Below are positions 14,019 through 27,721 of a stretch of 40,286 nt of DNA, piece after piece. Origin of the DNA: an uncultured Syntrophales bacterium (GTDB lineage Bacteria > Desulfobacterota > Syntrophia > Syntrophales > JAAYKM01); contig CAYPKE010000002.1 in the NCBI GenBank assembly GCA_964411235.1, forward strand, positions 1 to 40,286, written 5' to 3'. Within the stretch, counting starts at the first letter, position 1, and every line of letters begins with the position of its first letter. Both the position numbers and the translations under genes were made by a program. The notes beneath the pieces were generated by a model that was not told the origin of the DNA, searched no databases, and saw nothing but the letters and a program-made list of their open reading frames with translations.

Positions 14019-14031
14019 TTTTATATATCAT

Positions 14032-15084: not shown

Positions 15085-16425
15085 ATGACAAAAGATATAA
15101 TAAATCCAAAGGCAAAACCCTATCTGAAAGAGGTCTTAATCGGTCTTGTCATACTGATCGCCGTATGCATGCCGTTTCTGCATAATATTGAAAACAGACT
15201 GTACCATCACGACGAAAATCACTGGATACACACCTCCAAATACTTCAAGTTATTCTTCATCGATCGTGATTTCCATAATCCGCAATGGAAAGAATGGTGG
15301 ACCTGGGACCAGCCATCTGTCGGCAGGTATATCATCGGCATTTCTTTGTATCTTGATGGCGGGGAAAAGCGCTTTGAAGAAGTCGCAAAAATGGCTGTAT
15401 GGAAGTCATCCCAGAGTTTCTTATGGAACACACTGAACGGAGCCCTGCCGATGAAGGACATTCTTTACAGGGCAAGGTTGCCGATGGCCATCCTGGGAGG
15501 GCTGACCTGTTTCTTGATCTACCTGGCGGGCACCATGCTCTTCAACCGCTGGACGGGCATTCTGGCCGCGCTGCTTCTGGCATACAATCCCCTGATGCTT
15601 GAATCCAGCCAAAGGGCCATGACCGATTCGCCCCTTATTTTTTTCATGACTGCAAGCATGGTCCTGATGATTTTCTTCTATCAATCGATAAATAGGCGGA
15701 AGCATTACACCGCGCTGGGGCTTTCCCTGTTAATAGGGGTTGCCGTCGCGCTGGCGGCGGGCAGCAAAATGAACGGCGCCCTGGCAGGGATCACATTCGG
15801 GACTTTTTGCATATTGCTCTCAGTTTTCAAGATCAAGCAACTTTATAGAAACTGCAATTTACCGGCTCTTCCACGAAGAATCATGACCGATATGGACTTG
15901 AAAACCGTATCCTCCTGCCTCATCATATCCGGCCTGACATCCATTCTGCTCTTTACGGCGCTCAATCCATACCTCTACAAGCAACCCTTAAAAGGTTTCC
16001 AGAAAATGGTTGAACACAGGATGGAAACGGCCAAGAACCAGCAGAAAAACTGGACCGCGATTCATACGGCAGGCGAAAAATTCCGTTTTGTAACCAACCG
16101 CTCCTTGTATGATGCACGTTACACTACATTGAAGAGCGTCTTTCATCTCCCTCTTGACCTGATTCTATTCATTACCGGATTAGTCATCCTTTTTTATACA
16201 GAGACCAGGCATGTAATCCAAAATGGGGCCCTCTCCATGAAAAGCATCGTCTTGGTCTGGACTCTCATCACCTATATTGGCATCATGGTTTGGATTCCCC
16301 TGGACTGGGATCGTTACTATCTGCCTGTTGTGCCCTGTGTCGCCATGATGTGTGCCTTCGGTACGGAAAGATTCATTGCCATAAGCTATAATTACGCCAA
16401 ACGCGGTGTCTTGCATGCAGCTTAA
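15085..16425 (+). CDS. GT-C fold membrane glycosyltransferase (PMT/ArnT-like, GT39/GT83-type)
   Basis: A polytopic membrane protein with a DE pair in the first loop (HHDENHW) and the typical LAGTMLFNRWTGILAALLLAYNPLMLESSQRAMTDSP block. It is divergent from the GtrB-like GT2 gene. Confidence 0.7.
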   Translation: MTKDIINPKAKPYLKEVLIGLVILIAVCMPFLHNIENRLYHHDENHWIHTSKYFKLFFIDRDFHNPQWKEWWTWDQPSVGRYIIGISLYLDGGEKRFEEVAKMAVWKSSQSFLWNTLNGALPMKDILYRARLPMAILGGLTCFLIYLAGTMLFNRWTGILAALLLAYNPLMLESSQRAMTDSPLIFFMTASMVLMIFFYQSINRRKHYTALGLSLLIGVAVALAAGSKMNGALAGITFGTFCILLSVFKIKQLYRNCNLPALPRRIMTDMDLKTVSSCLIISGLTSILLFTALNPYLYKQPLKGFQKMVEHRMETAKNQQKNWTAIHTAGEKFRFVTNRSLYDARYTTLKSVFHLPLDLILFITGLVILFYTETRHVIQNGALSMKSIVLVWTLITYIGIMVWIPLDWDRYYLPVVPCVAMMCAFGTERFIAISYNYAKRGVLHAA

Positions 16426-16496: not shown

Positions 16497-17750
16497 ATGC
16501 ATACATCCACGGCTTCTCAAGACCCCCGCCCCTTCACAGCGAATAAGGATTTATCCAACTCTGATATTCCTGTGAATCATAACTTAAAGGATCGTTTTTG
16601 CAGCAAGCCATGGGAGTTTATCGAAATAGGCCGTGAAGGAAAAGCGACCGCATGCTGCCCTTCCTGGCTTCCCAAGCTCATAGGGAAACTCCCTGAAGAC
16701 TCTGTGGAAGCTGCCTGGAATTCAGATTCGATGAGGGAAATACGGGCAAGCATTCTTGACGGGTCATTTCGGTTTTGCAGGCCTGCAAATTGTACACTGA
16801 TCGCATCCGGAACCCTGCCGAAAAGAAATAAAATCTGCGATCCGAAAATCAGAAATATTATCGCCGAAAACAGTACTTTCATGGCGGATGAACCCAAACG
16901 TTATTTTTTAAGCTACGATTCTTCATGCAACTTGAGCTGCCCCAGTTGCCGTACGGTTCGTGTCAATATTGCCGATGGTCCTGAATATGAAAGTCTGCAA
17001 AATATTCACAGTAGGGTGATAAAAGCGCTGTTTAGTCAACCCCATGACAGACATTTCTTGGTCAATATAACCGGAGCGGGAGATCCGTTTGCTTCAAAAC
17101 TTTTCAGAAGCCTTCTCACAACGGTTGATGGTGCTGATTATCCTAACGTTGTTTTTGATTTCCAGACCAATGGCGTGATGTTCACCAGGAAGTGTTTCGA
17201 ACAAATGGGAAAAATAAAACACAACCTTGGCCGGATCGCAGTGTCTTTTGATGCTGCAAATCCCTCCACGTATTCAGTGACGCGCCGCGGCGGTGATTGG
17301 AATCAACTTATTGATAATATGTCTTTTATGAACGAATTACGTCAGGAGAAACTGATAAAGAATTTGACGGTAGAGTATGTCGTCCAGGCTCTAAATTATC
17401 AAGAATTACCTGATTTTGTTAACCTGCTGAACCGCTATAAAGCGGTTGACACCATATCGTTCAGCCTTATAAACAACTGGGGCACTTATTCGGCAGAAGA
17501 ATTTAAAAAACAGGCGATATGGCAAACCGATCATCCCGAGTTCACGAATTTTCTAAGGGTTCTCTGTGATCCGGCACTTTGCAATGGAAGGATTTTCTGG
17601 GGTAATGTTTATCCTTACCGTCTCACAGCCCTTAAACAAATGGGGAACCGCATATTATTGGGCAATAAAATCCGTTCCAGAATCAATAAGTTGCAAAACA
17701 AAATCACCGTGACCATGCGGGATGCCCTGACAAGCTGCCAGAACCGGTAA
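16497..17750 (+). CDS. Radical SAM enzyme with an extra N-terminal Cys-rich (SPASM/twitch-like) segment
   Basis: CNLSCPSC is a CxxxCxxC cluster motif, followed by ITGAGDPF. The N-terminal part has C..PW....CCPSW....C....C spacing. The family was not identified further. Confidence 0.7.
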   Translation: MHTSTASQDPRPFTANKDLSNSDIPVNHNLKDRFCSKPWEFIEIGREGKATACCPSWLPKLIGKLPEDSVEAAWNSDSMREIRASILDGSFRFCRPANCTLIASGTLPKRNKICDPKIRNIIAENSTFMADEPKRYFLSYDSSCNLSCPSCRTVRVNIADGPEYESLQNIHSRVIKALFSQPHDRHFLVNITGAGDPFASKLFRSLLTTVDGADYPNVVFDFQTNGVMFTRKCFEQMGKIKHNLGRIAVSFDAANPSTYSVTRRGGDWNQLIDNMSFMNELRQEKLIKNLTVEYVVQALNYQELPDFVNLLNRYKAVDTISFSLINNWGTYSAEEFKKQAIWQTDHPEFTNFLRVLCDPALCNGRIFWGNVYPYRLTALKQMGNRILLGNKIRSRINKLQNKITVTMRDALTSCQNR

Positions 17751-17805
17751 CGTTTGCTGTTTTTCGCAACGCATTTATGATCACCTCCGGTTTTCACGGC
17801 ACAAC

Positions 17806-18315
17806 TTATTTCCAGTGGCAACGGAGATCGCTTAAGAGATTTAAGGCATTTTTTTCATGCTGGTACCGATATCGGGAGATGTGCGCCAAAGAGGCCATGG
17901 CGAAGAAAGGGAACAGCCAGACAAAGCGGCTGCCGAACCGCTGATGCGGCACCGAAAGGCAACCCGTGATAAATGACTGAAGCAGATAGGCAAAGGCAAT
18001 AAAAATGAGAAAGAAAATTGGATTATACTGGCTACGCCTCCGAAAAATGTAAAAAGCGGCCACCGTCACAAAAAGTGCCAAGGCATAGACCGCTATATGA
18101 AGAAAATTCAAGTATTCCAATAAATACAGCTTGTTTCGGCTTTGCAGAGAGTCGATGTAGGCCCGGTATTCTCCCGGGAAATAAGACCGTATTGGATTGG
18201 TCACGTAGTATTCAAGGTAAGGCCTTCGGAAAGTTAGCACTTTGATCAATTGAAGAAGGGTAGCAAAAAACAGTACGCTCCCAATTTTTAATCTGTTCAA
18301 TGCCAAATCCGACAT
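17806..18315 (-). CDS. Hypothetical polytopic membrane protein
   Basis: A 169-aa ORF with 4-5 hydrophobic segments. It is the last gene of the minus-strand glycosyltransferase string. No recognisable motif was seen. Confidence 0.5.
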   Translation of the reverse strand: MSDLALNRLKIGSVLFFATLLQLIKVLTFRRPYLEYYVTNPIRSYFPGEYRAYIDSLQSRNKLYLLEYLNFLHIAVYALALFVTVAAFYIFRRRSQYNPIFFLIFIAFAYLLQSFITGCLSVPHQRFGSRFVWLFPFFAMASLAHISRYRYQHEKNALNLLSDLRCHWK

Positions 18316-18421
18316 TAATATTTCACCCGCTACATTTTTTGCAGCAACTTCACCGTATTCTTTTCATAGCTCCTTGTCTTCACAGATCATCCATTGTTAC
18401 AGGAAAAATGGGGCTTGGTGA

Positions 18422-19105
18422 TTACCCACAACGTCTCCGGTCCAAAGCGGCTTTTAATGCATGAACGTACACCCTTCTATGGTCTCGTTGAGAAATGCCG
18501 AGGTTGGTTTTGTGAATACGTCGATTCATCAACACTTCCGGCAACATGGTCTGTTTCAAACCCATTTCCATGGCCCTGGCATACCAGTCAACAAATTCAC
18601 CAATTTTCAGGGTCTCATTAAAAAACCCGACTTGCATAAAAGCTTCTTTTTTGATGAGCATCGCTCCGGCATGGTATCCCCGCATGCTTTCAACGGGCAT
18701 GCCGATGCCGGCTCTTTCCTCCTCGGTCAATTCCGGACTGTAAAATTGCTGAATGTGCCCGAAAACCATCTCTAATTCTGGATCGGCCTCAAAGGCCGCC
18801 ATTTGTCGCCACAGCTTATCCTTCATCCAGAGGTCATCCGCATCAAGAAATGCCAGGAATCCTCCTTTCGCTAGGGATACGCCCCTATTGCGGGCAGATC
18901 CGGGACCGCTGTTCTTCTGGTAATGATATTGTATTGCCGACCCGAACCGGCGGGCGACTTCCGCCGTCGCATCGGTGGATCCGTCGTCCACGATGATAAT
19001 TTCCAGTGAACGGCAATCTTGAGTGATGATGCTTGAAACCGCCTCAGCAAGAAATGCCTCCCCGTTAAATGCAGGAATAATGACGCTGACCGCAATTCCT
19101 TCCAT
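18422..19105 (-). CDS. Glycosyltransferase family 2
   Basis: VSVIIPAFNGE, IIIVDDGSTDAT, LAFLDADDLW and a QFYSPEL region match GT-A fold GT2 enzymes. Confidence 0.85.
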   Translation of the reverse strand: MEGIAVSVIIPAFNGEAFLAEAVSSIITQDCRSLEIIIVDDGSTDATAEVARRFGSAIQYHYQKNSGPGSARNRGVSLAKGGFLAFLDADDLWMKDKLWRQMAAFEADPELEMVFGHIQQFYSPELTEEERAGIGMPVESMRGYHAGAMLIKKEAFMQVGFFNETLKIGEFVDWYARAMEMGLKQTMLPEVLMNRRIHKTNLGISQRDHRRVYVHALKAALDRRRCG

Positions 19106-19200
19106 AATGAAAGTTGTCTGCTCCTAATCTCTTTGCCTGCTTATCCTTGCCCTACGATCGGCAGAAACTTTCCCCCGGGAGCCCTTTTCCATTACACAAG

Positions 19201-19893
19201 TCATCCGCCGGCATCTTCATTTCGCTTCGCTTCCAGATGCGCTTTGATCATTCTCACACGGTCTTTGATAAAAACTCTATGCGTGATGCCTTTGTTGTGG
19301 TCATGCAAACGCCGCTTGTAAATCGTATCCGATAACATCACTGTTTTCAGACCAAGCCTTCGCAAGCGCAAAATCCAATTCACTTCCTGACCGACGTGAT
19401 AATTCAATTCGAACAATCCGACCTTGAAGAAACTTTCCCGTTTGATCAACATCATGGTGACCATTTCACCGGGCATTGGTTCGACGGGGCAAAACAGTTT
19501 CTTTTGTTTCTCTCCATCGAGTTCAGGACTGCAAAATTGCTTCACATGACCGAAAACCGCTTCAACCTCCGGTTTTTCGACAAAGGCGCCTGTTTGAAGG
19601 GCAAGTTTATTTGCCAGCCAGAGATCATCCGCGTCCAGGAAAGAAAAAAAGTTTCCCTTGGCCATTTCAATCCCTTTATTGCGTGCCGCGCCGCTTCCGG
19701 CGTTCTCTTGCCGGCAATAGCGAACGGACGGAAAAGACTGGGCGGCCTGCACGGCCGATCCGTCCGTCGATCCGTCATCCACCAGGATGATTTCACAGGG
19801 TTTGACCGTTTGCGACATGACGCTTGCAATGGCCTCGGTCAAATATGATCCGGCATTGTAGGAAGGAATGATGACACTAATTTTGAAATCCAT
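19201..19893 (-). CDS. Glycosyltransferase family 2 (paralogue of 18422-19105)
   Basis: ISVIIPSYNAG, IILVDDGSTDGS, FSFLDADDLW and KQFCSPEL are present. The start was taken at MDFKISVIIP; the track ORF extends to 19968. Confidence 0.85.
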   Translation of the reverse strand: MDFKISVIIPSYNAGSYLTEAIASVMSQTVKPCEIILVDDGSTDGSAVQAAQSFPSVRYCRQENAGSGAARNKGIEMAKGNFFSFLDADDLWLANKLALQTGAFVEKPEVEAVFGHVKQFCSPELDGEKQKKLFCPVEPMPGEMVTMMLIKRESFFKVGLFELNYHVGQEVNWILRLRRLGLKTVMLSDTIYKRRLHDHNKGITHRVFIKDRVRMIKAHLEAKRNEDAGG

Positions 19894-20011
19894 GACCGTT
19901 ACCCCCTGATCCTGCTCAAGCCCTTGCAGCCCTGAACGCAGGCACTGTTGTCCTTTCTGATCTTGCAATTATCTTTTGTGTTTAGGCCCTTACGTCTTAA
20001 ACTCGTTTCAA

Positions 20012-21790
20012 TCAGGCGCGTTTGCGGTCAATAAATTTCTTGAATATTTTCAGGGAATTCAACTCAACCATGTTCTTGCCTTCCGTCATGTTCCGGCCAT
20101 GCCGGCGGACAAACAGCCTTGTTTCTTCCAGCCGCTTGATGTTGATACCCATTTCACCGGCGCGAAGGTACCAGTCCGCATCCTCGCCGAACCGCATGGT
20201 CGGATCGAAAAGACCGACTTTTTCGAACACCGCCTTGCGATACAAACCCGCGCCTATATAATGGGGAAAAGACTCCAAAGGGTTACCGACGCAATGGTAA
20301 GATTTCGTCTGTTCATCAAATTCCATCAATTGGCCATAACCGCGAACGATTTCAAGCTCAGGTTGTTGCAACATTTCCTCCAGCAACGTGTGCAGGTTAT
20401 TCTCGGGCCATAAATCATCCACATCCAGAAAGGCGATGTAATCACCGGATGCATCCCGAATGCCGCGATTCCTTGCCGCGGCAGGTCCCGCATTGTCCTG
20501 CTTGAAATATCGGATATCCAGGGGCAGCCGATTGATTATTTCCTCTGTCCGATCATCGGAACCATCATTGACAAAAATTATTTCCAGGGCAGGGTAATTC
20601 TGGGAGAGGACATTGTCAATGGCCTCCTGTATGAAACGCTCTCCGTTGTAAACTGGAATGATTACGCTGATCAGCGGTTTTTCCCGTAAATCTTCATCAG
20701 CAGTAGCCGTCGCAAACTGGGGCGGGTCACCTTTTTTCACCTGATCGATCAAGTGCGAAACGGCAGCAGGAATGCTTGAGAAATCATTCCCGATTTCAAG
20801 TGTGTAATGAGGAACGGCATCGATCAGACGTCCAATGAAATCCTGCGTGTAGCGGCCGACATTGGGCAACTGCGACATGGTGGTAAAAGACATGGCGCCC
20901 TGGATCGACCTCTTCGCCGCCGGAACGATTTTTGCGTCCGGTCGGTGAACGATGACCGGCGTCAGGACCGCCCGGAGCGGCATCTGCGCAGCAATCTGTC
21001 TCCGCATCGGCGTATTGAGAAACATGACCGCCTTTTCGCGGTCCATTTTTTCAATGTTGCTCACATGGACCGCCAGAGAGGGAAAGTTCTCGACGTGGTC
21101 CGCGTCCAGTTTCGCCGTGCTGTAGAGGCTGTAAACGACCGGTTCCGGGTCAACCCGGGCGATCAAATAATCATCCGCCAGATAATACAGACCCGCCTGC
21201 AGGCAGGACAGGGCCGTTGTGGATTTACCGACACCCCCCTTTCCCGTGACCAACACGGCACCATTGTCCGTACCAACCGCCGCAGCGTGAAGGAGCTGGC
21301 ATCCGTTCATCTCCATCCACCAGTGAAAAAGCGTCCGCAGGGGGGAGGCATGTACCCAGAATGGCAGTTTCTCGGCTTTCTGAACCCAGAATATTCCGAT
21401 TCCCGCTTCCAGATCCATGAAGTTGACCGAATCCTCAACCCAATGAAAGGCCACTTTGAACCGCTTGCTGTTAAACCCCCATATATCCCCCCGATCGGTG
21501 AAGCAATCGACGGTGCAGGGAGGCGATATCATTTGGACACCGGTGGAATCGGTTTCCCAGATGCAGATCGTTAAATCGGCATTTTGTTTATCAGCCATAC
21601 GCAGGTGCTCCAACGCCGGCGTCAAAAGCGGTATCAAGGGTTCCCCGGCAAACCGGAGACAAACAACCGTTTGTCCGATCCGATAATAAAAGTCTCTTGC
21701 CCCGACGGCTTTTTCCGCCTGGCGAAACCGCTCATAGCTTCTCTGAAAAAAATCCTGCTGTTCCGCTTCCGTTTTCTGTGGTTTGTACAT
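20012..21790 (-). CDS. Fusion protein: N-terminal HprK-like P-loop kinase domain plus C-terminal GT2 glycosyltransferase domain
   Basis: The N-terminal ~390 aa contain LLHAAAVGTDNGAVLVTGKGGVGKSTTALSCLQAGLYYLADDY, the HPr-kinase-related Walker A context. The C-terminal ~210 aa contain ISVIIPVYNGERF, IIFVNDGSDDRT and IAFLDVDDLW (GT2). ATG 21790 follows AGAGGG. Confidence 0.7.
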   Translation of the reverse strand: MYKPQKTEAEQQDFFQRSYERFRQAEKAVGARDFYYRIGQTVVCLRFAGEPLIPLLTPALEHLRMADKQNADLTICIWETDSTGVQMISPPCTVDCFTDRGDIWGFNSKRFKVAFHWVEDSVNFMDLEAGIGIFWVQKAEKLPFWVHASPLRTLFHWWMEMNGCQLLHAAAVGTDNGAVLVTGKGGVGKSTTALSCLQAGLYYLADDYLIARVDPEPVVYSLYSTAKLDADHVENFPSLAVHVSNIEKMDREKAVMFLNTPMRRQIAAQMPLRAVLTPVIVHRPDAKIVPAAKRSIQGAMSFTTMSQLPNVGRYTQDFIGRLIDAVPHYTLEIGNDFSSIPAAVSHLIDQVKKGDPPQFATATADEDLREKPLISVIIPVYNGERFIQEAIDNVLSQNYPALEIIFVNDGSDDRTEEIINRLPLDIRYFKQDNAGPAAARNRGIRDASGDYIAFLDVDDLWPENNLHTLLEEMLQQPELEIVRGYGQLMEFDEQTKSYHCVGNPLESFPHYIGAGLYRKAVFEKVGLFDPTMRFGEDADWYLRAGEMGINIKRLEETRLFVRRHGRNMTEGKNMVELNSLKIFKKFIDRKRA

Positions 21791-22031
21791 GTTGCTGCAA
21801 CCCTCTTGATTATGTTTACAGTCTTTCTTCGCCGGCACAGGCGTTTCATATCTATTTGGTTCGCATCACCTTTGGGAAAACAAACCAGACCAAGACTCTG
21901 CTGTACCAGACTCACTTTTTTCCAGCCTGCACGCCCTTCGATGAAGCAGTGTCCTGTCTTGCCGTCTCAATCGAGCTTGACCTTTTTTCGCTAACCGGAT
22001 GAACCCGGAAACCTTCAATTGCGAGTATCCT

Positions 22032-23063
22032 CTACCCGTTTTTCGTGACAACCTTCAACGTTCGCGACAGCAGGCAGCCGTTATCAAAAATCTCTTTTTC
22101 CGATAAATCTTTATACCATTGCGGTGTCCAAGAGTTATCGAGACCTATAATACACTGGTTTTTAAGAAATACGTCGTGGACCTGCTTATCATTTTTAAAC
22201 CAGAAGCGGTCATACTTTTCATTGGGGGGCATCGCTCTTGCGGGGAAATAATTCGCTTCCGGAATAAATCCGTATTTGATTCGGTCAAGCATTTTTAAAT
22301 ACTTGGGAAACATGAGGTGAAAAAGAATCTCCCTCCTTCTTTGCCTGAGTGACCGGCATAATCGGCTCGCGATCACTTTAGCCCCCGCTTGATGATGCGA
22401 CAGCCTGGATTGAAAGGCCGCAATCGGTTCATCTAAAATTTTCTTCTGTAATTTGCCCAAGAAGCCGGTATTGTATATCATTGCGTCCATCACGTCGGAT
22501 AGGATGCTATTACCCAAATAATCCCAGTCCAGCTCTTTTTCGCCGGGATTGACACCGGCAAACTTTACGAGTTTTCGCTGTATCTCGCTTAACCACCGCA
22601 TCAGGATCAATGATCCGGGCCGAGCTGCCATAAAAGCCAAATGATTGTTAAACATAACGATCTCCGCATCATCCAGTCTGCCTATAAGCGGACGGATGTC
22701 TTTCATTACAATCGTGTCGGCGTCCATAAAAATACCGCCGTGCTCACTTAGCACAGCAATCATGAGGGCATCTTTCTGCATGGCCGGATTGAATTTTTTT
22801 AGTCTCGTAATATCGAGAGCGCCTGCAGGAATGTATCGGCTTAAATTGGAATAATTCAGAAAAACGATTTCATAAGCTGCAAGATGCCGTTCCCAAGTCT
22901 GCCTGCATAATTTCAGGTAGGGCGGCATGGCCTCCATAGGTTCCCAAAAGGAAAAAATGGTCTCTTTCTTTGCAGGAGAGGGCATTTCTTCTTCCTTATT
23001 CCGATCTAACCGGTCCAAGATTCCCGAGGTATTCTTTTCAGCGGTCAACCCATCCACCTTCAT
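22032..23063 (-). CDS. DXD-motif glycosyltransferase (capsular-polysaccharide-synthesis/Gly_transf_sug-like)
   Basis: IFSFWEPMEAMPPYLKLCRQTWERH...QKDALMIAVLSEHGGIFMDADTIV resembles Caps_synth/GT32-like enzymes. The start ATG overlaps the ABC gene stop codon (ATGA at 23060-23063). Confidence 0.6.
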   Translation of the reverse strand: MKVDGLTAEKNTSGILDRLDRNKEEEMPSPAKKETIFSFWEPMEAMPPYLKLCRQTWERHLAAYEIVFLNYSNLSRYIPAGALDITRLKKFNPAMQKDALMIAVLSEHGGIFMDADTIVMKDIRPLIGRLDDAEIVMFNNHLAFMAARPGSLILMRWLSEIQRKLVKFAGVNPGEKELDWDYLGNSILSDVMDAMIYNTGFLGKLQKKILDEPIAAFQSRLSHHQAGAKVIASRLCRSLRQRRREILFHLMFPKYLKMLDRIKYGFIPEANYFPARAMPPNEKYDRFWFKNDKQVHDVFLKNQCIIGLDNSWTPQWYKDLSEKEIFDNGCLLSRTLKVVTKNG

Positions 23064-24769
23064 TGACAGCAGCTTAACAAGGCTTCCTTCTCCGGAGATT
23101 TCACTGCATTCAACCTCCCATCTTCCAGCCGCCAGACCTCCTGAGCATGCTCCACGACAGAGTCATCATGACTGATGATCAGAATTGCGGGATGGTCCTC
23201 AAGGCGGTCGAGGCTTTCCAGCAATCTCCCTACGGTCACCCGGTCAAGATGATTGGTCGGTTCATCAAGGATCAGCAATTTCGGGCGGCGCAGCAAGGCC
23301 CGGGCAATCGCCAGGCGTTGACATTCCCCTCCGGAAAGAAGCACCCCGTCTTCCCCGATCTGAGTCTCGTATCCATCAGGAAGCTGGCGGACGAACTCAT
23401 CCGCCAAGGCGATCCGGCAGGCCTCAAAAACCCGCTCCCGATCAACGTCGGTAGCACCATAGGTCACGTTCTCCAGAAGCGTCCCGGAAAAAAAGGCCGG
23501 ATTCTGCGTGACGACGCCAATCGAACGCCTGAGATGCACCAGGTCAAGCTCTTCATAAGGCACACCATCGGCGGTCAGCCGCCCTTCAACCGGGGCATAG
23601 AAGCCCAGCATAAGCTCCACCAGGGTACTCTTGCCGGAGCCGTTTGACCCGATGACGGCCATTCGTGATCCGGGTTCGAGCGACAGGCTGACCGATTTCA
23701 GGACGGGCTGCCGGTCATAGGCAAAGGACACCGATTCCAGGGCGAGGAACCCTTGAAATGGGATTTGCCTGTCTCCCCGGTAAGGTTGCCTGTCCTGAGT
23801 CTGCGCCAGATTATAAAGCGTTTTCAGGGATTCGTTTCCGTTGATGAGATCCGTAATGCAGGCCGTCATGTTGTCAACATGATTGAAAAGAAAAATCGCC
23901 GCCACATAAAAGGAGAGGAATTCCCCCATCGTCATCCGCCCCCCGGCCACAAAGCCCCCTCCAATGATGATGAGAAGGATGCCGGAAAGACCGGTCAGCG
24001 TTTGCTGCATTTGCCCGTGAACGGCATAAACAAACGACATCCGGCCCGTTTGCGCCTCCAGGTCCTTCAGGACTTGCGTCTGTCGTTCCGTTTCCTTGGC
24101 CTCTGCACCCTGGATTCGCGTCAGGTCCATGTAACGCAGGACAAACCAGATCCCTTTCCCGAATGATTCAAAAGCACGCTGAAAAATGTAAACCCGCGAC
24201 TTAACGATTTGCCCCGAATACCGATTCGACAGAAAAATAACCGGGAAAAGGGAGATCATCACCAAAACGAGAAACCAGTTTAAAAAAAGAAGCACGAAAC
24301 AGAGGGCAAGGCTTATAAAGAACGAGGGCAGGAGGCGTGACAGAAGGGCGTTGCTCATGTTGCTGAGACGCTCCGAATCCTGCACAATGCGGGTGTGAAT
24401 GATTTTCTGGTCTTCCCTGGTATGAAAAGACCGGGAAAAAGTGTAGAGCTTCTTCAGAAGATCTTCCCTCAGCAAAAAGATCGACCCGTTGATGATGCGG
24501 ATATTGATGGACCGCAGCCATAGGGAGATGCCCGAATTGATCAGGCGAAAACCGAAAATCCCGGCACCTGCCAGAACAAGGAGACGGATGTCATTCTGCG
24601 GAATGGCCACATCAAAAAGATAGCGGATCAGAAACAGCGTAGGCAGGACGACCAGGGACTGGGCGGCCGATCCAAGGGAACTCAAACCGATCAACCAGGA
24701 GCGATTGCGATGAAAGGCCCAAAAATAGCGCCATGCGGCGATGTCAAAAATGCCTTTTGGGGAAGCCAT
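23060..24769 (-). CDS. ABC exporter, fused permease + ATPase (no N-terminal C39 peptidase domain)
   Basis: Six TM helices are followed by Walker A GSNGSGKST, signature LSGGECQRLAIARAL and Walker B LLILDEPTNHLD. Confidence 0.9.
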   Translation of the reverse strand: MASPKGIFDIAAWRYFWAFHRNRSWLIGLSSLGSAAQSLVVLPTLFLIRYLFDVAIPQNDIRLLVLAGAGIFGFRLINSGISLWLRSINIRIINGSIFLLREDLLKKLYTFSRSFHTREDQKIIHTRIVQDSERLSNMSNALLSRLLPSFFISLALCFVLLFLNWFLVLVMISLFPVIFLSNRYSGQIVKSRVYIFQRAFESFGKGIWFVLRYMDLTRIQGAEAKETERQTQVLKDLEAQTGRMSFVYAVHGQMQQTLTGLSGILLIIIGGGFVAGGRMTMGEFLSFYVAAIFLFNHVDNMTACITDLINGNESLKTLYNLAQTQDRQPYRGDRQIPFQGFLALESVSFAYDRQPVLKSVSLSLEPGSRMAVIGSNGSGKSTLVELMLGFYAPVEGRLTADGVPYEELDLVHLRRSIGVVTQNPAFFSGTLLENVTYGATDVDRERVFEACRIALADEFVRQLPDGYETQIGEDGVLLSGGECQRLAIARALLRRPKLLILDEPTNHLDRVTVGRLLESLDRLEDHPAILIISHDDSVVEHAQEVWRLEDGRLNAVKSPEKEALLSCCQ

Positions 24770-24779
24770 ATTCAGATAT

Positions 24780-25937
24780 CTACCGGGGCTTGACCGTGAA
24801 AGGACGTGAAAACAGCATTTCCATTGTCAGCCTGATTCCATTCCACATAAGTTCGGGGTAACTTTTCGCCTCCAGCCGCCAACGCAGGAAATGCGGAAAT
24901 CCAGCCAAACCGGGCAAACCCATCCCCGGCGAAACTCGCCGAAACTGGCAGAGATTGGCGCACAGGGCAACATAGGGTCTGCGGTTCCTGCGCTCCAGAT
25001 TTCCCATCCAGAAGCGATTCTCCATGGTTTCCAGGTATGTAACCGGAAGGCTCGACACCATCTGCATGACCTCCGGCGGTACAGAGGCGCGAAACGTTTC
25101 CACCAGATAAGCCATGCCGGTCTTTAATCTCAGGCCATACCGATGGGCTTTCGCCGTACTAACCAGCCTTGACCAGTCTATGGTATATTCCGGTGCATTG
25201 ATCAGGGTCAGCGCGTCGGCGATCCATCGTATGGAAGGCACAGGATTCCAGGGAACGCCGTGAACGATGGCGTGGAACAGCATGTCCGTCGGACCGGGTG
25301 CGGTCGTTGCAACCCCAGCCATCTGCACCGGCAGGGATTTATCCCAGAATTCCTGCTCGCACTCGGTCCGGAACCCGTGCAGGGGACGCCAATGAAGGTC
25401 GAATTCCCCCTGCTTCTCATGCATGAATTGAACGGCATGGCCATAACGCAAGTCAGCCTCGACAAAAGGGACCGGCATTCGCCAGCCTTGCCGGCTGAGC
25501 AACGCCACCGCTTTCCGGGCCTGCCCCCAGGGAACAAGCACGTCAATATCCGCCATCGGACGGGCGCCATTATTTTTATAATAAAGAAGGGACATGGCCG
25601 CACCCTTGAGAAGCATGGTCCGGATACCTGCGTCCTCGAGGCGTCTGATAACATTAGCCATGGCGTGAAAAAGGGTTTGGTTCTTGCTCCAGGCCTGGCG
25701 ATAAATCCCCTTCAATTTCGGCATGGCGTCACCATTGAAGCTCTGCCTCTGAAGGTTCGTATAAAGAAGGGGGAGCAGCCGGAAAGACCCCGGCTCAAGA
25801 TCTTCTTCCAGATCATTTTCGGCATGCCACGCGCGCCAGAACGCAACGGCTTCATCTCCGGAGAGGAGGGACGCTTTCAGAAGCCGCTCCTGGTTTAACG
25901 TCGCAAAGTTCGCCTTGGATAAGTCAGTCATATGCAT
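24780..25937 (-). CDS. Nucleotidyltransferase family protein (PF14907-like, 'uncharacterised nucleotidyltransferase')
   Basis: RTMLLKGAAMSLLYYKNNGARPMADIDVLVP and FDLHWRP are characteristic of this family, which is often found next to PqqD/HprK-like genes. It ends 10 nt before the ABC gene. Confidence 0.7.
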   Translation of the reverse strand: MHMTDLSKANFATLNQERLLKASLLSGDEAVAFWRAWHAENDLEEDLEPGSFRLLPLLYTNLQRQSFNGDAMPKLKGIYRQAWSKNQTLFHAMANVIRRLEDAGIRTMLLKGAAMSLLYYKNNGARPMADIDVLVPWGQARKAVALLSRQGWRMPVPFVEADLRYGHAVQFMHEKQGEFDLHWRPLHGFRTECEQEFWDKSLPVQMAGVATTAPGPTDMLFHAIVHGVPWNPVPSIRWIADALTLINAPEYTIDWSRLVSTAKAHRYGLRLKTGMAYLVETFRASVPPEVMQMVSSLPVTYLETMENRFWMGNLERRNRRPYVALCANLCQFRRVSPGMGLPGLAGFPHFLRWRLEAKSYPELMWNGIRLTMEMLFSRPFTVKPR

Positions 25938-26044
25938 ACCGCAAACCCGTTTGCCTGAGGAGAAGCGACCGACCGGTCAGCTCGCTGGCCAAACGGTCGA
26001 AACAGGCAAAGAACTCAGAAAATTCGGATAGGAATCAATTCAGC

Positions 26045-26512
26045 CTAATCAGGTGTTGGCTTGGTTGAGGGCCACCCGGCGGCATCCACTTCATGGATCG
26101 GGTCCAGAAGCAATAAATCCTTCATATCCGTATACTTGTTCAGCAAAGGCGGGCTGAAGGACTTTTCCCTTTCTCCGGAAGGATCCAAAACCGGCTGTGA
26201 CTGTGCTGCATCGAGAGGGGCATCCACCTGGTCCGCCGCAACGGCAGCGATCAAGCCTTCCCGCTCCAGTTCCGACAGAAAGGCATACAGTGATTCCTCC
26301 TCGCCCCCTGAACAGAGGTACCTTGACCGCATCAGGGCGAGCATGTCAGCCACGGGCATTTCCTTGGCAAGGCATTCCCAGATATCGGCTCCGGTCTCAA
26401 CGGTGCTGTAGTAATGGCCGGTGTCAAGATTTAAGATTATGGTCTCTCCATCGATGTTTTCATGCACGATCGTCGGTTCGTTGATTTTCAAGCGATCACC
26501 GTTACCCGTCAT
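26045..26512 (-). CDS. PqqD-family (RRE-type peptide chaperone) protein with a ~65-aa C-terminal extension
   Basis: VHENIDGETIILNLDTGHYYSTVETGADIWECL......LSELEREGLI is a PqqD-like fold signature. GAGG precedes ATG 26512; the track ORF extends to 26608. Confidence 0.75.
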   Translation of the reverse strand: MTGNGDRLKINEPTIVHENIDGETIILNLDTGHYYSTVETGADIWECLAKEMPVADMLALMRSRYLCSGGEEESLYAFLSELEREGLIAAVAADQVDAPLDAAQSQPVLDPSGEREKSFSPPLLNKYTDMKDLLLLDPIHEVDAAGWPSTKPTPD

Positions 26513-26663
26513 AATACACCTCATCCCCATGTATTTTTTCCAAACCTGTTTCCGTTTTCGTCCGGAAAAGGCTTTATTGATCGATCCGGCATGCCTGATG
26601 CCCACCATCAGTCATACGTTACGGTGCAAGACGTGTCTTTCGTATATAATGCAGCGGCATTTG

Positions 26664-26732
26664 TCAACGAAACAAAATACCGGGGCAGTTGCAGCTCCTC
26701 GTGCAGAAATCCCGGCCCGGTATCCGCGGCAT
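26664..26732 (-). CDS. Candidate small Cys-rich peptide MPRIPGRDFCTRSCNCPGILFR (possible precursor; speculative)
   Basis: A 22-codon ATG ORF sits in the 147-nt gap between the radical SAM and PqqD genes, on the same strand. It has three Cys residues within 7 positions. The SD is weak (GGTGG, 11 nt upstream). It could be a chance ORF. Confidence 0.25.
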   Translation of the reverse strand: MPRIPGRDFCTRSCNCPGILFR

Positions 26733-26755
26733 GAAAAGAACGACCACCTGTCCTT

Positions 26756-27721
26756 TCAGGAAACGATCCGGCCATTATCGTTATCAAAATCGACCCCTGC
26801 CTCGGCACACCGCAACTTATCGTAATCGATGAGCTCTTCGGTCGCCACATCATGCAAAGAAAGCCATTCCCGTGCGGGAACCATGCGATGAAGACGACTG
26901 ACGCCGATGACCCCCAGGCAATAACGGCAGGCTTTGAGGGGACGATCCCCCTCGAGATAGCGGACCAATTCTTTTTTCAATGAGGAGCCTGGATGAATGC
27001 GGATGCCGTCCTCCCCCATTGCGGTACGCTGCGAAAAAGGCGCTTTGGCCATGGCAACGGCCTCAGGACATTTATAAAAATAGCCGGCGTGCGCTGCGTG
27101 GCAATCCCACTGATGGGCGATTTTGCAGGTACGGTAGATGCTGGCGACCAGGCTGTCATCCGCGGTTCCCTTCAAAGCGAAGGCAGCGCGGAAATGCTCA
27201 TAATGTTTCCTTCGCAGTTCAACCTTGCCCGCATCGCACACGGCCCGGACACGCGAGAACACCTCTCCATCGGAAGGTGAATCGGGATAGACGGATATCT
27301 CGATAATATCAAAGCTTTTCAGGATATCTTCCGGAACGTCGCCCAGGTTCCTGCCGTTCGTTAACAACATGAGCCGTTCCGCAACGCCGCTTCGGCGAGC
27401 AGCCCGGACCAGCGATATCAGGTCTGGATGCAGCAACGGTTCCCCGCCGACGATCTTGACGCAGTCCGCCCGGTAAATTCCGGCAAGCGTCGACAGGTCC
27501 TGATAAACCTGCCGGGGGTCTGCCCACGCCGGGGCCAGGCAGGGCGCCGCCTGATTGCAGTCAAGACAGGAGTTGTTGCAGTGATCGACGGCACTGATTT
27601 CACAGGTGGAGGAAGGCTGTATCTTTCCGAAGCGATAGCGGGACCCCGTGTTTCGGATCCGTCCGTCCCATAAATGACCAACCAGCATCATAAAACGCGA
27701 GATGGGGGACTTGTGCTGCAT
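26756..27721 (-). CDS. Radical SAM enzyme with a C-terminal auxiliary Cys cluster
   Basis: VDHCNNSCLDCNQ is a CxxxCxxC motif, followed by VGGEPLLHPD. The C-terminal cysteines (CKIAHQWDCH...YKCPE...CRYCLG) suggest a twitch/SPASM-like auxiliary cluster. Confidence 0.75.
   Translation of the reverse strand: MQHKSPISRFMMLVGHLWDGRIRNTGSRYRFGKIQPSSTCEISAVDHCNNSCLDCNQAAPCLAPAWADPRQVYQDLSTLAGIYRADCVKIVGGEPLLHPDLISLVRAARRSGVAERLMLLTNGRNLGDVPEDILKSFDIIEISVYPDSPSDGEVFSRVRAVCDAGKVELRRKHYEHFRAAFALKGTADDSLVASIYRTCKIAHQWDCHAAHAGYFYKCPEAVAMAKAPFSQRTAMGEDGIRIHPGSSLKKELVRYLEGDRPLKACRYCLGVIGVSRLHRMVPAREWLSLHDVATEELIDYDKLRCAEAGVDFDNDNGRIVS

What the first reader, a model, noticed from the sequence alone, without database searches (positions are those of the whole stretch)
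17806..27721. Orphan peptide-maturation-like cassette: radical SAM + PqqD/RRE + PF14907 nucleotidyltransferase + ABC exporter coupled to an HprK-like kinase::GT2 fusion and three more glycosyltransferases
Ten same-strand genes are tightly packed, with an ATGA overlap at 23060-23063 and a 10-nt gap at 24770-24779. In order they are:
- a radical SAM enzyme (CNNSCLDC plus a C-terminal Cys cluster)
- a 22-codon Cys-rich ORF
- a PqqD-like protein
- a PF14907-type nucleotidyltransferase
- an ABC exporter without a C39 domain
- a DXD glycosyltransferase
- an HprK-like P-loop kinase fused to GT2
- two GT2 genes
- a membrane protein

PqqD, an HprK-like kinase, a PF14907 enzyme and an ABC exporter form the accessory set known from phosphorylated or glycosylated lasso-peptide clusters. 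From memory, the same set appears in the uncharacterised 'HprK-related kinase/PqqD' cassettes in TIGRFAMs.

Here there is no Asn-synthetase-like lasso cyclase and no leader protease. Instead there are a radical SAM enzyme and four GT domains. This predicts a carrier, most likely a small peptide, that is rSAM-modified, phosphorylated and (phospho)glycosylated, then exported. I know of no characterised system with this composition.
Basis: partly seen in the sequence, partly recalled or inferred. Interest (0 to 1): 0.85.

Follow-up and report, generated by a model that had tools for sequence, protein, structure and literature searches.

The report
Lasso-less peptide phosphoglycosylation gene cassette
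The genes are real and belong to a large, unstudied family found in more than ten bacterial phyla: it keeps the peptide-binding protein, kinase and sugar-adding enzyme of decorated lasso peptides, has lost the ring-forming enzymes, and probably builds a phosphate-linked sugar chain on a peptide tail fused to the binding protein.

Summary
The gene order, overlaps and domain calls are confirmed. All genes lie on the minus strand.

In 28 of 28 well-flanked related loci from more than ten phyla, the kinase domain travels with a PqqD-like gene. PF14907 is present in 25 of 28, and the kinase is fused to GT2 in 25 of 28. The ABC exporter is present in only 14 of 28, and the window-type radical SAM in 0 of 28.

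- **Radical SAM:** a full-length homologue of the SpcY/SpeY-type enzyme (PDB 7WZV), so probably a sugar-tailoring accessory.
- **22-codon ORF:** not conserved, and it overlaps a promoter-like TTGACA box.
- **PqqD protein:** a lasso B1-type recognition domain, then a disordered linker, then an always-fused, highly conserved C-terminal tail. The tail starts with the lasso-leader motif [FY]xxPxL.
- **Kinase:** carries the exact catalytic signature of validated lasso-precursor kinases.
- **Absent:** no lasso cyclase or leader protease anywhere in the window.

Best reading: a lasso-derived cassette that phosphorylates and glycosylates a tethered peptide. The acceptor and the product are not shown.

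No description was found in the paper library searched. I score interest at 0.7.

The parts
26756..27721 (-). Radical SAM enzyme (CX3CX2C = CNNSCLDC), SpcY/SpeY-type. An optional accessory of the cassette.
   Evidence: Pfam Radical_SAM 36 bits. Full-length match to PDB 7WZV/7WZX/7X0B, E 3e-54, whose sequence is near-identical to Streptomyces SpcY-type proteins. Adjacent to the cassette in 6 of 9 sampled genomic contexts, in different positions. A tenth relative is the Streptomyces protein named SpcY; its neighbourhood was not inspected. Absent from 28/28 genome loci and from L058.
26664..26732 (-). 22-codon Cys-rich ORF; judged not to be a gene.
   Evidence: No counterpart in L001, L004, L007 or L058. 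Its stop codon overlaps the TTGACA box at 26667-26662.
26513..26755 (-). 243-nt intergenic region with a sigma-70-like -35 box (TTGACA, 26667-26662) upstream of the PqqD gene.
   Evidence: A TTGAC box in the equivalent position is the only element that aligns across the window, L058 and L001. TTGACA/TTGACT with a -10-like hexamer is seen in L001, L004 and L007. The consensus scan did not pick up the window site.
26045..26512 (-). PqqD-like protein (155 aa): lasso B1-type RRE (residues ~11-95), disordered linker (~97-112), conserved C-terminal tail.
   Evidence: PF05402 40.3 bits; lasso_PqqD_Bac 45.5 bits, the same score as validated BsfB1. AF2 pLDDT >90 for the RRE and <50 for the linker. Foldseek best hits are TbiB1 5V1V/5V1U and 6JX3. 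Profile against BsfB1: 48.8 bits.
26048..26158 (-). C-terminal tail F119-D155: FSPPLLNKYTDMKDLLLLDPIHEVDAAGWP plus the variable end STKPTPD. Leader-like [FY]xxPxL motif followed by a core-like peptide.
   Evidence: Invariant F119, P122, Y127, M130, L134, L136, D137, P138, I139, H140, G146, W147, P148 in 48 sequences. 1864 representative proteins carry the motif; nearly all of the 150 best listed have it at the C-terminus of ~145-160-aa proteins. The two short hits looked up lie at contig ends. Residues 121-130 have pLDDT 89 with a strand at 125-127.
24780..25937 (-). PF14907 (NTP_transf_5) nucleotidyltransferase-fold enzyme, PsmN-type.
   Evidence: 131.9 bits. K111, G112, D130, D132, E178, D180, H182 and W183 are conserved in at least 90% of 32 homologues. 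In PsmN the D134A/D136A mutant is inactive (PMC6993621). Present in 25/28 loci.
23060..24769 (-). Half-size type IV ABC exporter (MsbA/ABCB-like), no C39 peptidase domain; optional.
   Evidence: Pfam ABC_membrane + ABC_tran. Generic MsbA/ABCB matches. Present in 14/28 loci; absent from L058.
22032..23063 (-). DXD glycosyltransferase (Caps_synth / Gly_transf_sug).
   Evidence: Shared only with the closest relative L058; absent from 28/28 genome loci.
20726..21790 (-). Kinase domain of the fusion: PEPCK/HprK-fold P-loop phosphotransferase with the lasso-kinase signature.
   Evidence: H168-x14-G183-x2-G186-x-G188-K189-S190-x15-D206-D207, conserved. Spacing is identical to BsfK H148/G163/G166/G168/K169/S170/D186/D187. 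hmmsearch 24 bits and hhalign 94.8% against BsfK. AF2 pLDDT 92; Foldseek best hit ATP-PEPCK, E 2e-10.
20012..20725 (-). GT2 (GT-A) domain fused to the kinase.
   Evidence: Glycos_transf_2 119 bits. Generic soluble GT2 relatives in the PDB. Fusion present in 25/28 well-flanked loci; all 120 best database hits listed are GT2 fusions, 116 of them full-length at ~590-620 aa.
19201..19968 (-). GT2 glycosyltransferase.
   Evidence: homologues follow the fusion gene in most loci.
18422..19105 (-). GT2 glycosyltransferase.
   Evidence: homologues follow the fusion gene in most loci.
17806..18315 (-). Remnant (C-terminal ~170 aa) of a ~460-aa polytopic membrane protein that follows the GT block in some cassettes.
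   Evidence: no Pfam family.
16497..17750 (+). Second radical SAM with an N-terminal twitch/SPASM-like domain; convergent neighbour inside the same low-GC island.
   Evidence: SPASM 30.9 bits + Radical_SAM. N_Twi_rSAM 80 bits, below the cutoff of 170. A homologue ends the cassette in L017.
15085..16425 (+). PMT/ArnT-like GT-C membrane glycosyltransferase.
   Evidence: PF02366 57.7 bits. Same gene in the same place and relative orientation in L058.
14226..14939 (-). GT2 of the polyprenyl-phosphate-sugar synthase type (ArnC / Dol-P-hexose transferase-like); likely donor supplier for the GT-C enzyme.
   Evidence: a GT2 sits in the same position beside PMT in L058.

Best explanation
The locus belongs to a large, undescribed family of 'lasso-less' cassettes. 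They descend from the tailoring half of phosphorylated or glycosylated lasso-peptide clusters.

**Conserved core.**
1. A lasso B1-type recognition protein. After a disordered linker it carries its own leader-like [FY]xxPxL motif and a conserved core-like C-terminal peptide.
2. A peptide-kinase domain of the HprK/PEPCK fold, fused to a GT2.
3. A PsmN-type PF14907 enzyme.
4. Two to eight further glycosyltransferases.

**Proposed mechanism.**
- The recognition domain binds the tethered leader in cis and presents the flexible C-terminal peptide to the kinase. This step is inferred, with AlphaFold support.
- The kinase phosphorylates a hydroxyl residue in that peptide. This is inferred by analogy with BsfK, PadeK and PsmK.
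- The PF14907 enzyme and the fused GT2 start a phosphate-linked sugar. This is inferred from PsmN.
- The other GT2 and DXD enzymes extend the chain (inferred).

**Optional, lineage-specific modules in this window.**
- The SpcY/SpeY-like radical SAM, probably an oxidation or epimerisation of a sugar.
- The ABC exporter.
- A periplasmic GT-C enzyme with its polyprenyl-phosphate-sugar synthase.

**What is shown.** Co-inheritance, domain identities, catalytic motifs and folds.

**What is not shown.** The acceptor, the chemistry and the product.
For: **Co-inheritance.**
- 45 genome loci in more than 10 phyla.
- Of 28 loci with at least 5 kb on both sides: PqqD 28/28, PF14907 25/28, Kin::GT2 fusion 25/28.
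- The same gene set appears in rearranged order in L004, L007, L055 and L057.

**Recognition domain.**
- Foldseek best hits are the lasso B1 proteins TbiB1 and 6JX3, target-normalised TM 0.85-0.90.
- The family profile scores 48.8 bits against validated BsfB1.
- Its score against NCBIfam lasso_PqqD_Bac equals that of BsfB1.

**Tail.**
- Always C-terminal and fused; 1864 representative proteins carry it.
- The two short hits looked up are at contig ends.
- It begins with [FY]xxPxL, the motif at lasso-leader positions -17 to -12 (PMC10368454).
- AF2 gives pLDDT 89 and a strand for residues 121-130, after a linker with pLDDT below 50.
- No separate precursor ORF is conserved in any locus.

**Kinase.**
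- Identical spacing of all eight catalytic residues of BsfK.
- hhalign probability 94.8%; PEPCK/HprK fold.
- BsfK is stimulated by its B1 protein (PMC10368454).

**PF14907 enzyme.**
- The DxD motif is conserved.
- PsmN is required for hexose addition on the phosphoserine of pseudomycoidin (PMC6993621).

**Precedent.** Predicted Butyrivibrio lasso clusters already combine the kinase, the nucleotidyltransferase and a GT2 (PMC7533575).
Against: - No Ser or Thr in the tail is invariant. 21 of 120 family members have none after GWP.
- The core-like segment is more conserved than RiPP cores usually are. That fits a docking or regulatory element as well as a substrate.
- A 150-aa protein is an unlikely cargo for a half-size ABC exporter, and no protease is encoded.
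- The exporter is missing from half of the cassettes.
- Cis-docking is inferred from pLDDT and DSSP only; the model's coordinates could not be inspected.
- PsmN chemistry has not been reconstituted in vitro (PMC11912497).
Confidence: 0.42

Rival explanations
1. Built-in leader with a trans acceptor. The tethered [FY]xxPxL tail is a permanent pseudo-leader that keeps the recognition domain loaded. Through its conserved DPIH..GWP segment it recruits or activates the kinase::GT2 and the PF14907 enzyme. The real acceptor is something else: an unlinked peptide or protein, or a glycan or lipid.
For: - The tail's core-like part is nearly invariant across phyla and has no invariant hydroxyl residue.
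- BsfB1 stimulates BsfK, and its authors leave open a direct B1-kinase interaction (PMC10368454).
- The exporter is optional.
- The glycan genes diversify as they do in surface-glycan loci.
- PMT-type GT-C enzymes act on other proteins.
Against: - No candidate trans substrate is conserved in or beside any of the ~50 loci.
- The variable C-terminal end after GWP looks like a short core: 99/120 have Ser or Thr.
Confidence: 0.3
2. No peptide is involved. The kinase and the PF14907 enzyme form a sugar-activation pair (sugar kinase plus nucleotidyltransferase giving an NDP-sugar). The GT2s use it to make a polysaccharide or glycolipid, and the PqqD protein is only a scaffold.
For: - The kinase model's best structural matches are small-molecule PEP carboxykinases over both domains.
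- GT2 relatives in the PDB are polysaccharide synthases.
- The radical SAM belongs to a family that includes Streptomyces SpcY. From memory, SpcY acts on a sugar.
- Accessories are epimerases, sulfotransferases and GT1s.
- The ABC exporter is MsbA/PglK-like.
Against: - The kinase has the exact signature of peptide kinases.
- The PqqD protein is a B1-type peptide-binding domain with a leader-like ligand.
- No initiating phosphoglycosyltransferase, Wzx/Wzy, Wzm/Wzt or outer-membrane export genes are present in the cassette.
- PsmN acts on a phosphopeptide in vivo.
Confidence: 0.15
3. A small separate peptide, for example the 22-codon Cys-rich ORF, is modified by the radical SAM with PqqD as its chaperone. 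It is then phosphorylated, glycosylated and exported.
For: - The radical SAM sits next to PqqD here and in L001.
- HprK-like + PqqD + rSAM/SPASM sets exist as a curated NCBIfam cassette (SynChlorMet models).
- Five related cassettes contain a SPASM-type rSAM.
Against: - The 22-codon ORF is not conserved and overlaps a promoter-like box.
- The rSAM has no SPASM hit and is SpcY/SpeY-like.
- It is absent from 28/28 genome loci and from the closest relative.
- Where present, it usually follows the last GT2 rather than PqqD.
- Homologues also stand alone.
Confidence: 0.05

Closest known systems
Phosphorylated or glycosylated lasso-peptide clusters: paeninodin (pade), pseudomycoidin (psm), Bradymonas (bsf)
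   Same: - B1-type RRE.
- HprK-like precursor kinase with the same catalytic signature.
- PF14907 (PsmN/BsfN-type) enzyme.
- Half-size ABC exporter.
- YxxPxL-type leader motif.
- The kinase works with B1.
- The product carries phosphate, and hexoses on the phosphate (PMC6993621, PMC10368454).
   Different: - No Asn-synthetase-like cyclase, no B2 protease and no free precursor gene.
- The leader-like and core-like peptide is fused to the RRE.
- The kinase is fused to a GT2.
- Two to eight extra glycosyltransferases are present.
- Position 1 of the 'core' is an invariant Leu, which cannot be a lasso start.
Curated NCBIfam/TIGRFAM cassettes with HprK-related kinases (HPr-rel-A system, HprK-related kinase B, SynChlorMet ScmC/ScmD)
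   Same: Same kind of pairing: a PqqD-family chaperone with an HprK-related P-loop protein, and for some a nucleotidyltransferase or rSAM/SPASM enzymes.
   Different: - All scores are far below the curated cutoffs: 29.7 and 20.7 against 200 for the kinase models; ScmD 17.6 against 100.
- Those families have no tail on PqqD and no GT2 fusion.
- A classical untailed triad coexists with the tailed cassette in L009.
SpcY/SpeY-type radical SAM enzyme of spectinomycin biosynthesis (PDB 7WZV)
   Same: Full-length homology with the window's radical SAM (E 3e-54, ~35% identity to SpcY), CX3CX2C motif and a C-terminal Cys-rich region.
   Different: - Different pathway.
- That SpeY is a twitch dehydrogenase acting on a sugar hydroxyl is recalled from memory (J Am Chem Soc 2022). 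The paper was not in the library searched.
- The substrate here is unknown.
Borosins (omphalotin OphMA) and engineered leader-fused RiPP enzymes (from memory)
   Same: The modified peptide, or its leader, is covalently tethered to the protein that recognises it, so no separate precursor gene is needed.
   Different: - In borosins the core is fused to the catalytic methyltransferase. Here the tether is to a non-catalytic RRE.
- The chemistry is phosphorylation and glycosylation.
- This is an analogy only; there is no homology.
GT2 glycosylation of RiPPs (glycocin S-glycosyltransferases such as SunS; IgtG on a lasso peptide; MftF on mycofactocin)
   Same: GT2-family enzymes add sugars, sometimes iteratively, to ribosomal peptide products (PMC11912497). 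The window's GT2 proteins give weak MftF and SunS hits.
   Different: Similarity is at the generic GT2 level. None of those enzymes is fused to a kinase or works on a phosphate-linked primer.

Membership tests
Lasso peptide biosynthetic cluster | Discrete B1 RiPP-recognition protein (PqqD-like wHTH) | tested here: met
   PF05402 40.3 bits. Foldseek top hits TbiB1 5V1V/5V1U and 6JX3. 48.8 bits against BsfB1. Same NCBIfam score as BsfB1.
Lasso peptide biosynthetic cluster | Separate precursor gene with a YxxPxL leader | tested here: not met
   No conserved small ORF in ~50 loci. A [FY]xxPxL motif exists only as part of the PqqD protein's own C-terminal tail.
Lasso peptide biosynthetic cluster | Asn-synthetase-like macrolactam synthetase (C) | tested here: not met
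   No Asn_synthase hit among the major ORFs scanned across the 40-kb window, nor among large flanking ORFs of related loci.
Lasso peptide biosynthetic cluster | Transglutaminase-like leader peptidase (B2) | tested here: not met
   No such domain in the window. No recurrent unassigned family of that size in related loci.
Lasso tailoring set (precursor kinase + PsmN-type enzyme) | Kinase signature H-x14-G-x2-G-x-G-K-S-x15-D-D, shown by mutagenesis in BsfK | tested here: met
   H168, G183, G186, G188, K189, S190, D206 and D207 are conserved. Spacing is identical to BsfK. hmmsearch 24 bits, hhalign 94.8%.
Lasso tailoring set (precursor kinase + PsmN-type enzyme) | HprK/PEPCK-like fold | tested here: met
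   AF2 pLDDT 92.3. Foldseek ATP-PEPCK E 2e-10, query-normalised TM 0.5-0.58. HprK 1JB1 E 0.0016 on the P-loop.
Lasso tailoring set (precursor kinase + PsmN-type enzyme) | PF14907 enzyme with a catalytic DxD | tested here: met
   131.9 bits. D130 and D132 conserved in at least 90% of 32 homologues. PsmN D134/D136 are essential. A direct alignment with PsmN was not possible.
Lasso tailoring set (precursor kinase + PsmN-type enzyme) | Phosphorylation of a precursor Ser/Thr and hexose addition on the phosphate | not testable with these tools
   Needs mass spectrometry of expressed proteins.
RRE-dependent radical SAM/SPASM peptide maturation (PqqE/PqqD type, SynChlorMet cassette) | rSAM with a SPASM domain that co-occurs with the RRE and a precursor | tested here: not met
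   No SPASM hit. Best relative is the SpcY/SpeY-type 7WZV. Window-type rSAM in 0/28 loci. ScmC/D/E/F scores far below cutoffs.
NCBIfam HPr-rel-A / HprK-related kinase B systems | Scores above the curated cutoffs for TIGR04352, TIGR04355 and TIGR04353 | tested here: not met
   20.7 and 29.7 bits against a cutoff of 200; no TIGR04353 hit. Validated BsfK also scores only 21-26 bits. The failure therefore excludes membership, not the kind of system.
Conventional polysaccharide locus (Wzx/Wzy- or ABC-2-dependent EPS or O-antigen) | Initiating phosphoglycosyltransferase, flippase/polymerase or Wzm/Wzt, chain-length regulator or outer-membrane export | tested here: not met
   None among the island's genes. 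MurJ at 10798-12375 is the housekeeping lipid II flippase, outside the island. An O-antigen-ligase-like gene appears only sporadically in other loci.
SpcY/SpeY-type radical SAM family | Full-length homology including CX3CX2C and the C-terminal Cys-rich auxiliary region | tested here: met
   E 3e-54 over residues 28-312 against 7WZV; 35% identity to SpcY P0034. The substrate is not testable.

The most novel reading that the evidence does not exclude
Bacteria in many phyla use a ribosomally made, RRE-tethered peptide as a covalent primer. On it, a kinase::GT2 fusion and a PsmN-type enzyme start a phosphodiester-linked, lineage-variable oligo- or polysaccharide. This would be a protein- or peptide-primed glycan pathway, glycogenin-like in logic and lasso-derived in ancestry. 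It would be a new class of ribosomal glycoconjugate made without any lipid carrier.
Probability: 0.2. Interest if true: 0.9.

Novelty: new variant of a known kind. Interest (0 to 1): 0.7.

Why it matters
**Scale.** The cassette is not an oddity of one contig.
- The tail motif alone defines about 1,860 protein clusters at 50% identity.
- The kinase::GT2 fusion has more than 750 homologues.
- Hosts span Desulfobacterota, Nitrospirota, Bacteroidota, Cyanobacteria, Acidobacteriota, Gemmatimonadota, Planctomycetota, Chlamydiota and others.
- No paper in the library searched describes it.

**What it would add if the proposed mechanism holds.**
- A new way to start a glycan: a phosphate on a tethered peptide.
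- A natural case of a leader fused to its own recognition domain.
- A first physiological context for the unexplained PsmN/PF14907 chemistry.

**What it shows about mining.** RiPP genome-mining rules that require a cyclase or a free precursor would presumably miss this family.

**It is testable.** Cultured carriers exist: Rhodohalobacter sulfatireducens WB101, Aerosakkonema funiforme and Argonema galeatum.

Tried and rejected
- **Separate precursor gene.**
  - Six-frame small-ORF listing upstream of PqqD in 42 loci.
  - All-against-all clustering of every ORF of at least 25 aa.
  - Motif search for the tail outside PqqD genes.
  - Nothing conserved was found; recurring small ORFs are shadows of real genes.
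- **Standalone tail peptides.** The short hits looked promising. The two looked up (P0325, P0348) lie at contig ends, so they are probably fragments.
- **22-codon ORF.** Rejected as a gene.
- **Lasso cyclase or protease.** Not found among the major ORFs scanned in the window or in related flanks.
- **Island boundaries.** No att-like direct repeat beside the tRNA cluster.
- **Promoter and terminator scan.** Counts do not exceed shuffled expectation.
- **Rfam.** Only three tRNAs, no riboswitch.
- **Single-sequence BLASTP of the window PqqD against BsfB1.** No hit; only the family profile detects it.
- **PDB by sequence for PF14907.** No hit.
- **ABC exporter.** PDB and NCBIfam matches are generic and do not separate peptide from lipid-linked-sugar export.
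- **Literature.** 'HprK-related kinase' and 'SynChlorMet' each returned no papers. 'PF14907' returned one unrelated mention. The SpeY/7WZV paper was not in the library.
- **Acceptor residue by conservation.** No invariant Ser, Thr or Tyr could be identified.

Full report
**1. The observation**

All the described genes are on the minus strand.

| Gene | Coordinates | Note |
|---|---|---|
| Radical SAM | 26756-27721 | |
| 22-codon ORF | 26664-26732 | |
| PqqD-like | ORF 26045-26608 | likely start 26512, 155 aa |
| PF14907 | 24780-25937 | |
| ABC exporter | 23060-24769 | |
| DXD glycosyltransferase | 22032-23063 | |
| Kinase::GT2 fusion | ORF 20012-21838 | called product starts at 21790, 592 aa |
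| GT2 | 19201-19968 | |
| GT2 | 18422-19105 | |
| 169-aa ORF | 17806-18315 | |

The ATGA overlap and the 10-nt gap are exactly as stated.

Pfam supports Radical_SAM (36 bits), PqqD (40.3), NTP_transf_5 (131.9), ABC_membrane/ABC_tran, Caps_synth/Gly_transf_sug and three Glycos_transf_2 domains. Hpr_kinase_C is below threshold: 23-25 bits against a cutoff of 33.3. No Asn-synthetase-like or transglutaminase-like protein was found among the major ORFs scanned across the 40-kb window.

**2. The unit that is actually inherited**

*The radical SAM family is small.* A search found only 62 homologues. Their neighbourhoods fall into two groups.
- Six contexts carry PqqD, PF14907, kinase, GT2s and the rSAM together: the window, L001, L004, L007, L055 and L057. 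The rSAM's position differs among them: upstream of PqqD in the window and L001, after the last GT2 or PF14907 elsewhere.
- Three contexts have the rSAM alone: L005, P0014 and L056.

*The kinase domain family is large.* It has more than 750 homologues. All 120 best hits listed are GT2 fusions, 116 of them full-length at ~590-620 aa, from many phyla. A scan of species-representative genomes returned 45 loci. They come from Desulfobacterota, Nitrospirota, Lentisphaerota, Bacteroidota, Dadabacteria, Acidobacteriota, Gemmatimonadota, Alphaproteobacteria, Cyanobacteria, Chlamydiota, Margulisbacteria and Chloroflexota.

*Mapping the window's proteins onto these loci.* Among 28 loci with at least 5 kb on both sides:

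| Feature | Present |
|---|---|
| PqqD | 28/28 |
| PF14907 | 25/28 |
| Kinase fused to GT2 | 25/28 |
| ABC exporter | 14/28 |
| Window-type rSAM | 0/28 |
| DXD GT | 0/28 |

*The closest syntenic relative confirms this.* L058 (fusion protein 79% identical) has the same flanks, tRNA_edit on one side and SerRS/MurJ on the other. It has PqqD, PF14907, the DXD GT, the fusion, three GT2s and the PMT/GT2 pair. It has neither the rSAM nor the exporter.

The core is therefore PqqD + PF14907 + kinase(::GT2) + GT2s. The rSAM and the ABC exporter are optional modules. Other optional genes are typical glycan-tailoring enzymes:
- a different SPASM-type rSAM;
- epimerases;
- sulfotransferases;
- GT1 enzymes;
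- an acyl-AMP ligase-carrier-thioesterase protein;
- an O-antigen-ligase-like protein.

**3. The radical SAM**

It aligns over its full length with PDB 7WZV/7WZX/7X0B (E 3e-54). That sequence is nearly identical to Streptomyces proteins in the hit list, one of which is named SpcY by UniRef.

From memory, SpeY/SpcY is the twitch radical SAM dehydrogenase that oxidises a sugar hydroxyl during spectinomycin dioxane-bridge formation. I could not retrieve that paper.

The window protein has no SPASM hit. Taken with its optional, variable position, it is best read as a sugar-tailoring accessory. It is not a PqqD-dependent peptide maturase.

**4. The 22-codon ORF**

It has no counterpart in L001, L004, L007 or L058. 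Its stop codon overlaps a TTGACA box. That box is the only element of the intergenic region that aligns across relatives. I do not consider it a gene.

**5. The PqqD-like protein is the key part**

*Architecture.* All ~150-aa family members have three parts:
- a PqqD domain;
- a variable linker of ~25-35 aa;
- a C-terminal motif that is better conserved than the domain itself: [FY]xxPxLNKY[ST]DMQDLLLLDPIH[DE]VDxxGWP, followed by 3-26 variable residues.

*Distribution.* A full-library phmmer search with the 41-aa tail found 1864 representative proteins. Nearly all of the 150 best listed are 145-160 aa with the motif at the C-terminus. The two short hits I looked up are at contig ends. No free-standing version of the tail was seen.

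*Structure prediction.* AlphaFold2 gives pLDDT above 90 for residues ~11-95, below 50 for residues 97-112, and 89 for residues 121-130. A short strand is called at 125-127, and confidence is lower after residue 136. A confident strand after a disordered linker implies docking onto the domain. I could not inspect coordinates, so this is an inference.

*Relatives.*
- Foldseek's best matches are the lasso B1 proteins TbiB1 (5V1V, 5V1U; target-normalised TM 0.88-0.90) and 6JX3. All three were crystallised with leader peptides.
- The family profile matches experimentally validated BsfB1 at 48.8 bits.
- The window protein and BsfB1 score the same against NCBIfam lasso_PqqD_Bac: 45.5 and 45.3 bits.

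*Motif.* YxxPxL at leader positions -17 to -12 is the conserved lasso-leader motif (PMC10368454). The tail begins with [FY]xxPxL. HMMER places BsfA's YKKPQL on it, although that score is not significant.

The protein therefore looks like a B1 recognition domain fused through a flexible linker to a lasso-type leader and a core-like peptide.

**6. The kinase**

Residues H168, G183, G186, G188, K189, S190, D206 and D207 are invariant or nearly so. They have exactly the spacing of H148, G163, G166, G168, K169, S170, D186 and D187 in BsfK. In BsfK, alanine substitutions at six of these eight positions reduced activity or solubility; G166A and G168A retained activity (PMC10368454).

- Profile searches match BsfK over this core: 24 bits, and hhalign probability 94.8% with 40% identity over 52 columns.
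- The AlphaFold model (pLDDT 92.3) is most similar to ATP-dependent PEP carboxykinases (E 2e-10). From established structural knowledge, that fold class also contains the HprK C-terminal domain.
- HprK 1JB1 is the best PDB sequence hit.
- Validated BsfK scores as poorly as the window protein against the curated HprK-related models. Sub-threshold scores are therefore normal for this class.
- BsfK phosphorylates Ser3 of its precursor and is strongly stimulated by BsfB1.

**7. PF14907**

D130-x-D132 and a third acidic cluster are conserved in at least 90% of 32 homologues. In pseudomycoidin biosynthesis, PsmK puts phosphate on the C-terminal Ser. PsmN, an uncharacterised nucleotidyltransferase whose D134A/D136A mutant is inactive, is required for adding one or two hexoses onto that phosphate (PMC6993621). 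Its in vitro chemistry is still unresolved (PMC11912497). Predicted Butyrivibrio lasso clusters already combine the nucleotidyltransferase, an HPr kinase and a GT2 (PMC7533575).

**8. Surroundings**

- The cassette lies in a low-GC island of ~14.2-27.7 kb, GC 0.45-0.52 against 0.53-0.62 in the flanks.
- The island sits between a cluster of three tRNA genes next to SerRS and a YbaK-like tRNA_edit gene.
- It also holds a PMT/ArnT-like GT-C enzyme, a polyprenyl-phosphate-sugar-synthase-type GT2, and a second rSAM with an N-terminal twitch-like domain. The GT-C enzyme and a neighbouring GT2 are conserved in L058.
- The 169-aa ORF is a remnant of a ~460-aa membrane protein found in other cassettes.

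**9. Most likely mechanism**

*Shown.* The co-inherited gene set, the folds, the catalytic motifs and the tethered leader-like tail.

*Inferred.*
- The RRE binds its own leader in cis and presents the flexible C-terminal peptide to the kinase.
- The kinase adds a phosphate.
- The PF14907 enzyme and the fused GT2 begin a phosphate-linked sugar.
- The further GTs extend it.
- The rSAM tailors a sugar.
- Where present, the ABC exporter and the GT-C enzyme handle export and an extracytoplasmic step.

*Main weaknesses.* There is no invariant hydroxyl residue in the tail. The core-like segment is unusually conserved. No protease is encoded that could release a peptide small enough for the exporter.

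*Rivals.*
- A built-in leader that activates the enzymes on a trans acceptor (0.30).
- A peptide-free sugar-activation and polysaccharide pathway (0.15).

**10. Comparison and novelty**

The system works most like the tailoring half of phosphorylated or glycosylated lasso clusters. It fails the defining lasso features: no cyclase, no B2 protease and no free precursor. It also fails the curated cutoffs of the HprK-related and SynChlorMet families. It lacks the hallmark genes of conventional polysaccharide loci.

No paper in the library searched describes it. I class it as a new variant of a known kind, RiPP-type recognition and tailoring. It is widespread and experimentally tractable.

Noticed in passing
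window 13783-14108: Three tRNA genes (Ser-tga, Ser-gct, Arg-acg) sit at the left edge of the low-GC glycan island (14.2-27.7 kb). This suggests an island insertion site, but no att-like direct repeat was found. L007 also has a tRNA directly upstream of its PqqD gene.
   Followed up: partly
L058 (whole locus), compared with window 14226-28677: The closest syntenic relative has the same flanks and cassette, but no radical SAM and no ABC exporter. It shares the DXD GT, the PMT-like GT-C gene and the GT2 gene next to PMT. Accessory content therefore changes between close relatives.
   Followed up: yes
window 17806-18315: The 169-aa 'membrane protein' matches only the C-terminal third of a ~460-aa polytopic protein with no Pfam family. 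That protein follows the GT block in L008, L009, L016, L021 and L040. The window copy is a gene remnant.
   Followed up: partly
L009 15-2534: A second, classical triad lies 7 kb upstream of the tailed cassette in the same Smithella contig: PF14907 (397 aa), an untailed 88-aa PqqD and an unfused 335-aa HprK-like kinase. It is followed by DUF362 and a B12-binding radical SAM. No precursor was recognised.
   Followed up: partly
window 26048-26158 (tail), compared with BsfA from PMC10368454: Numbering the tail like a lasso precursor (F=-17, P=-14, L=-12) gives a hydrophobic residue at -2 and E6-V7-D8 in the 'core'. BsfA has Ile(-2) and core GTSGNEVD8. This may be a fossil of a lasso precursor, or coincidence.
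   Followed up: no
PqqD-family proteins P0183-P0302 (C-termini): Some tails duplicate the ...D..GWP..[KR]xPD module, for example GWPNVDDKKGWPTRNPD. K or R at position +3 after GWP is the best-conserved residue of the variable end (101/120).
   Followed up: no
L009 12515-13609 and homologues in L010, L014, L022, L040: Five cassettes contain a different radical SAM with a true SPASM domain inside the GT block. Its best, sub-threshold hits are ScmE, StsB, WgkB and PqqE. This hints that some variants do modify a peptide by radical chemistry.
   Followed up: partly
window 16497-17750 (+): A convergent radical SAM has its SPASM/twitch-like domain at the N-terminus (N_Twi_rSAM 80 bits, below the cutoff). 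A homologue ends the cassette in L017, so it may also be an accessory of this system.
   Followed up: partly
L004 6770-7893: The kinase::GT2 gene appears split into 228-aa and 118-aa pieces with overlapping tblastn segments. This probably reflects frameshifts in the assembly rather than a real split.
   Followed up: no
window 29111-29758 (-) and 29739-31124 (+): A 215-aa ORF without any Pfam family lies between tRNA_edit and the MCP gene; L058 has a 212-aa gene in the same position. The 461-aa plus-strand ORF is a shadow of the MCP gene (29850-31463, minus strand).
   Followed up: no
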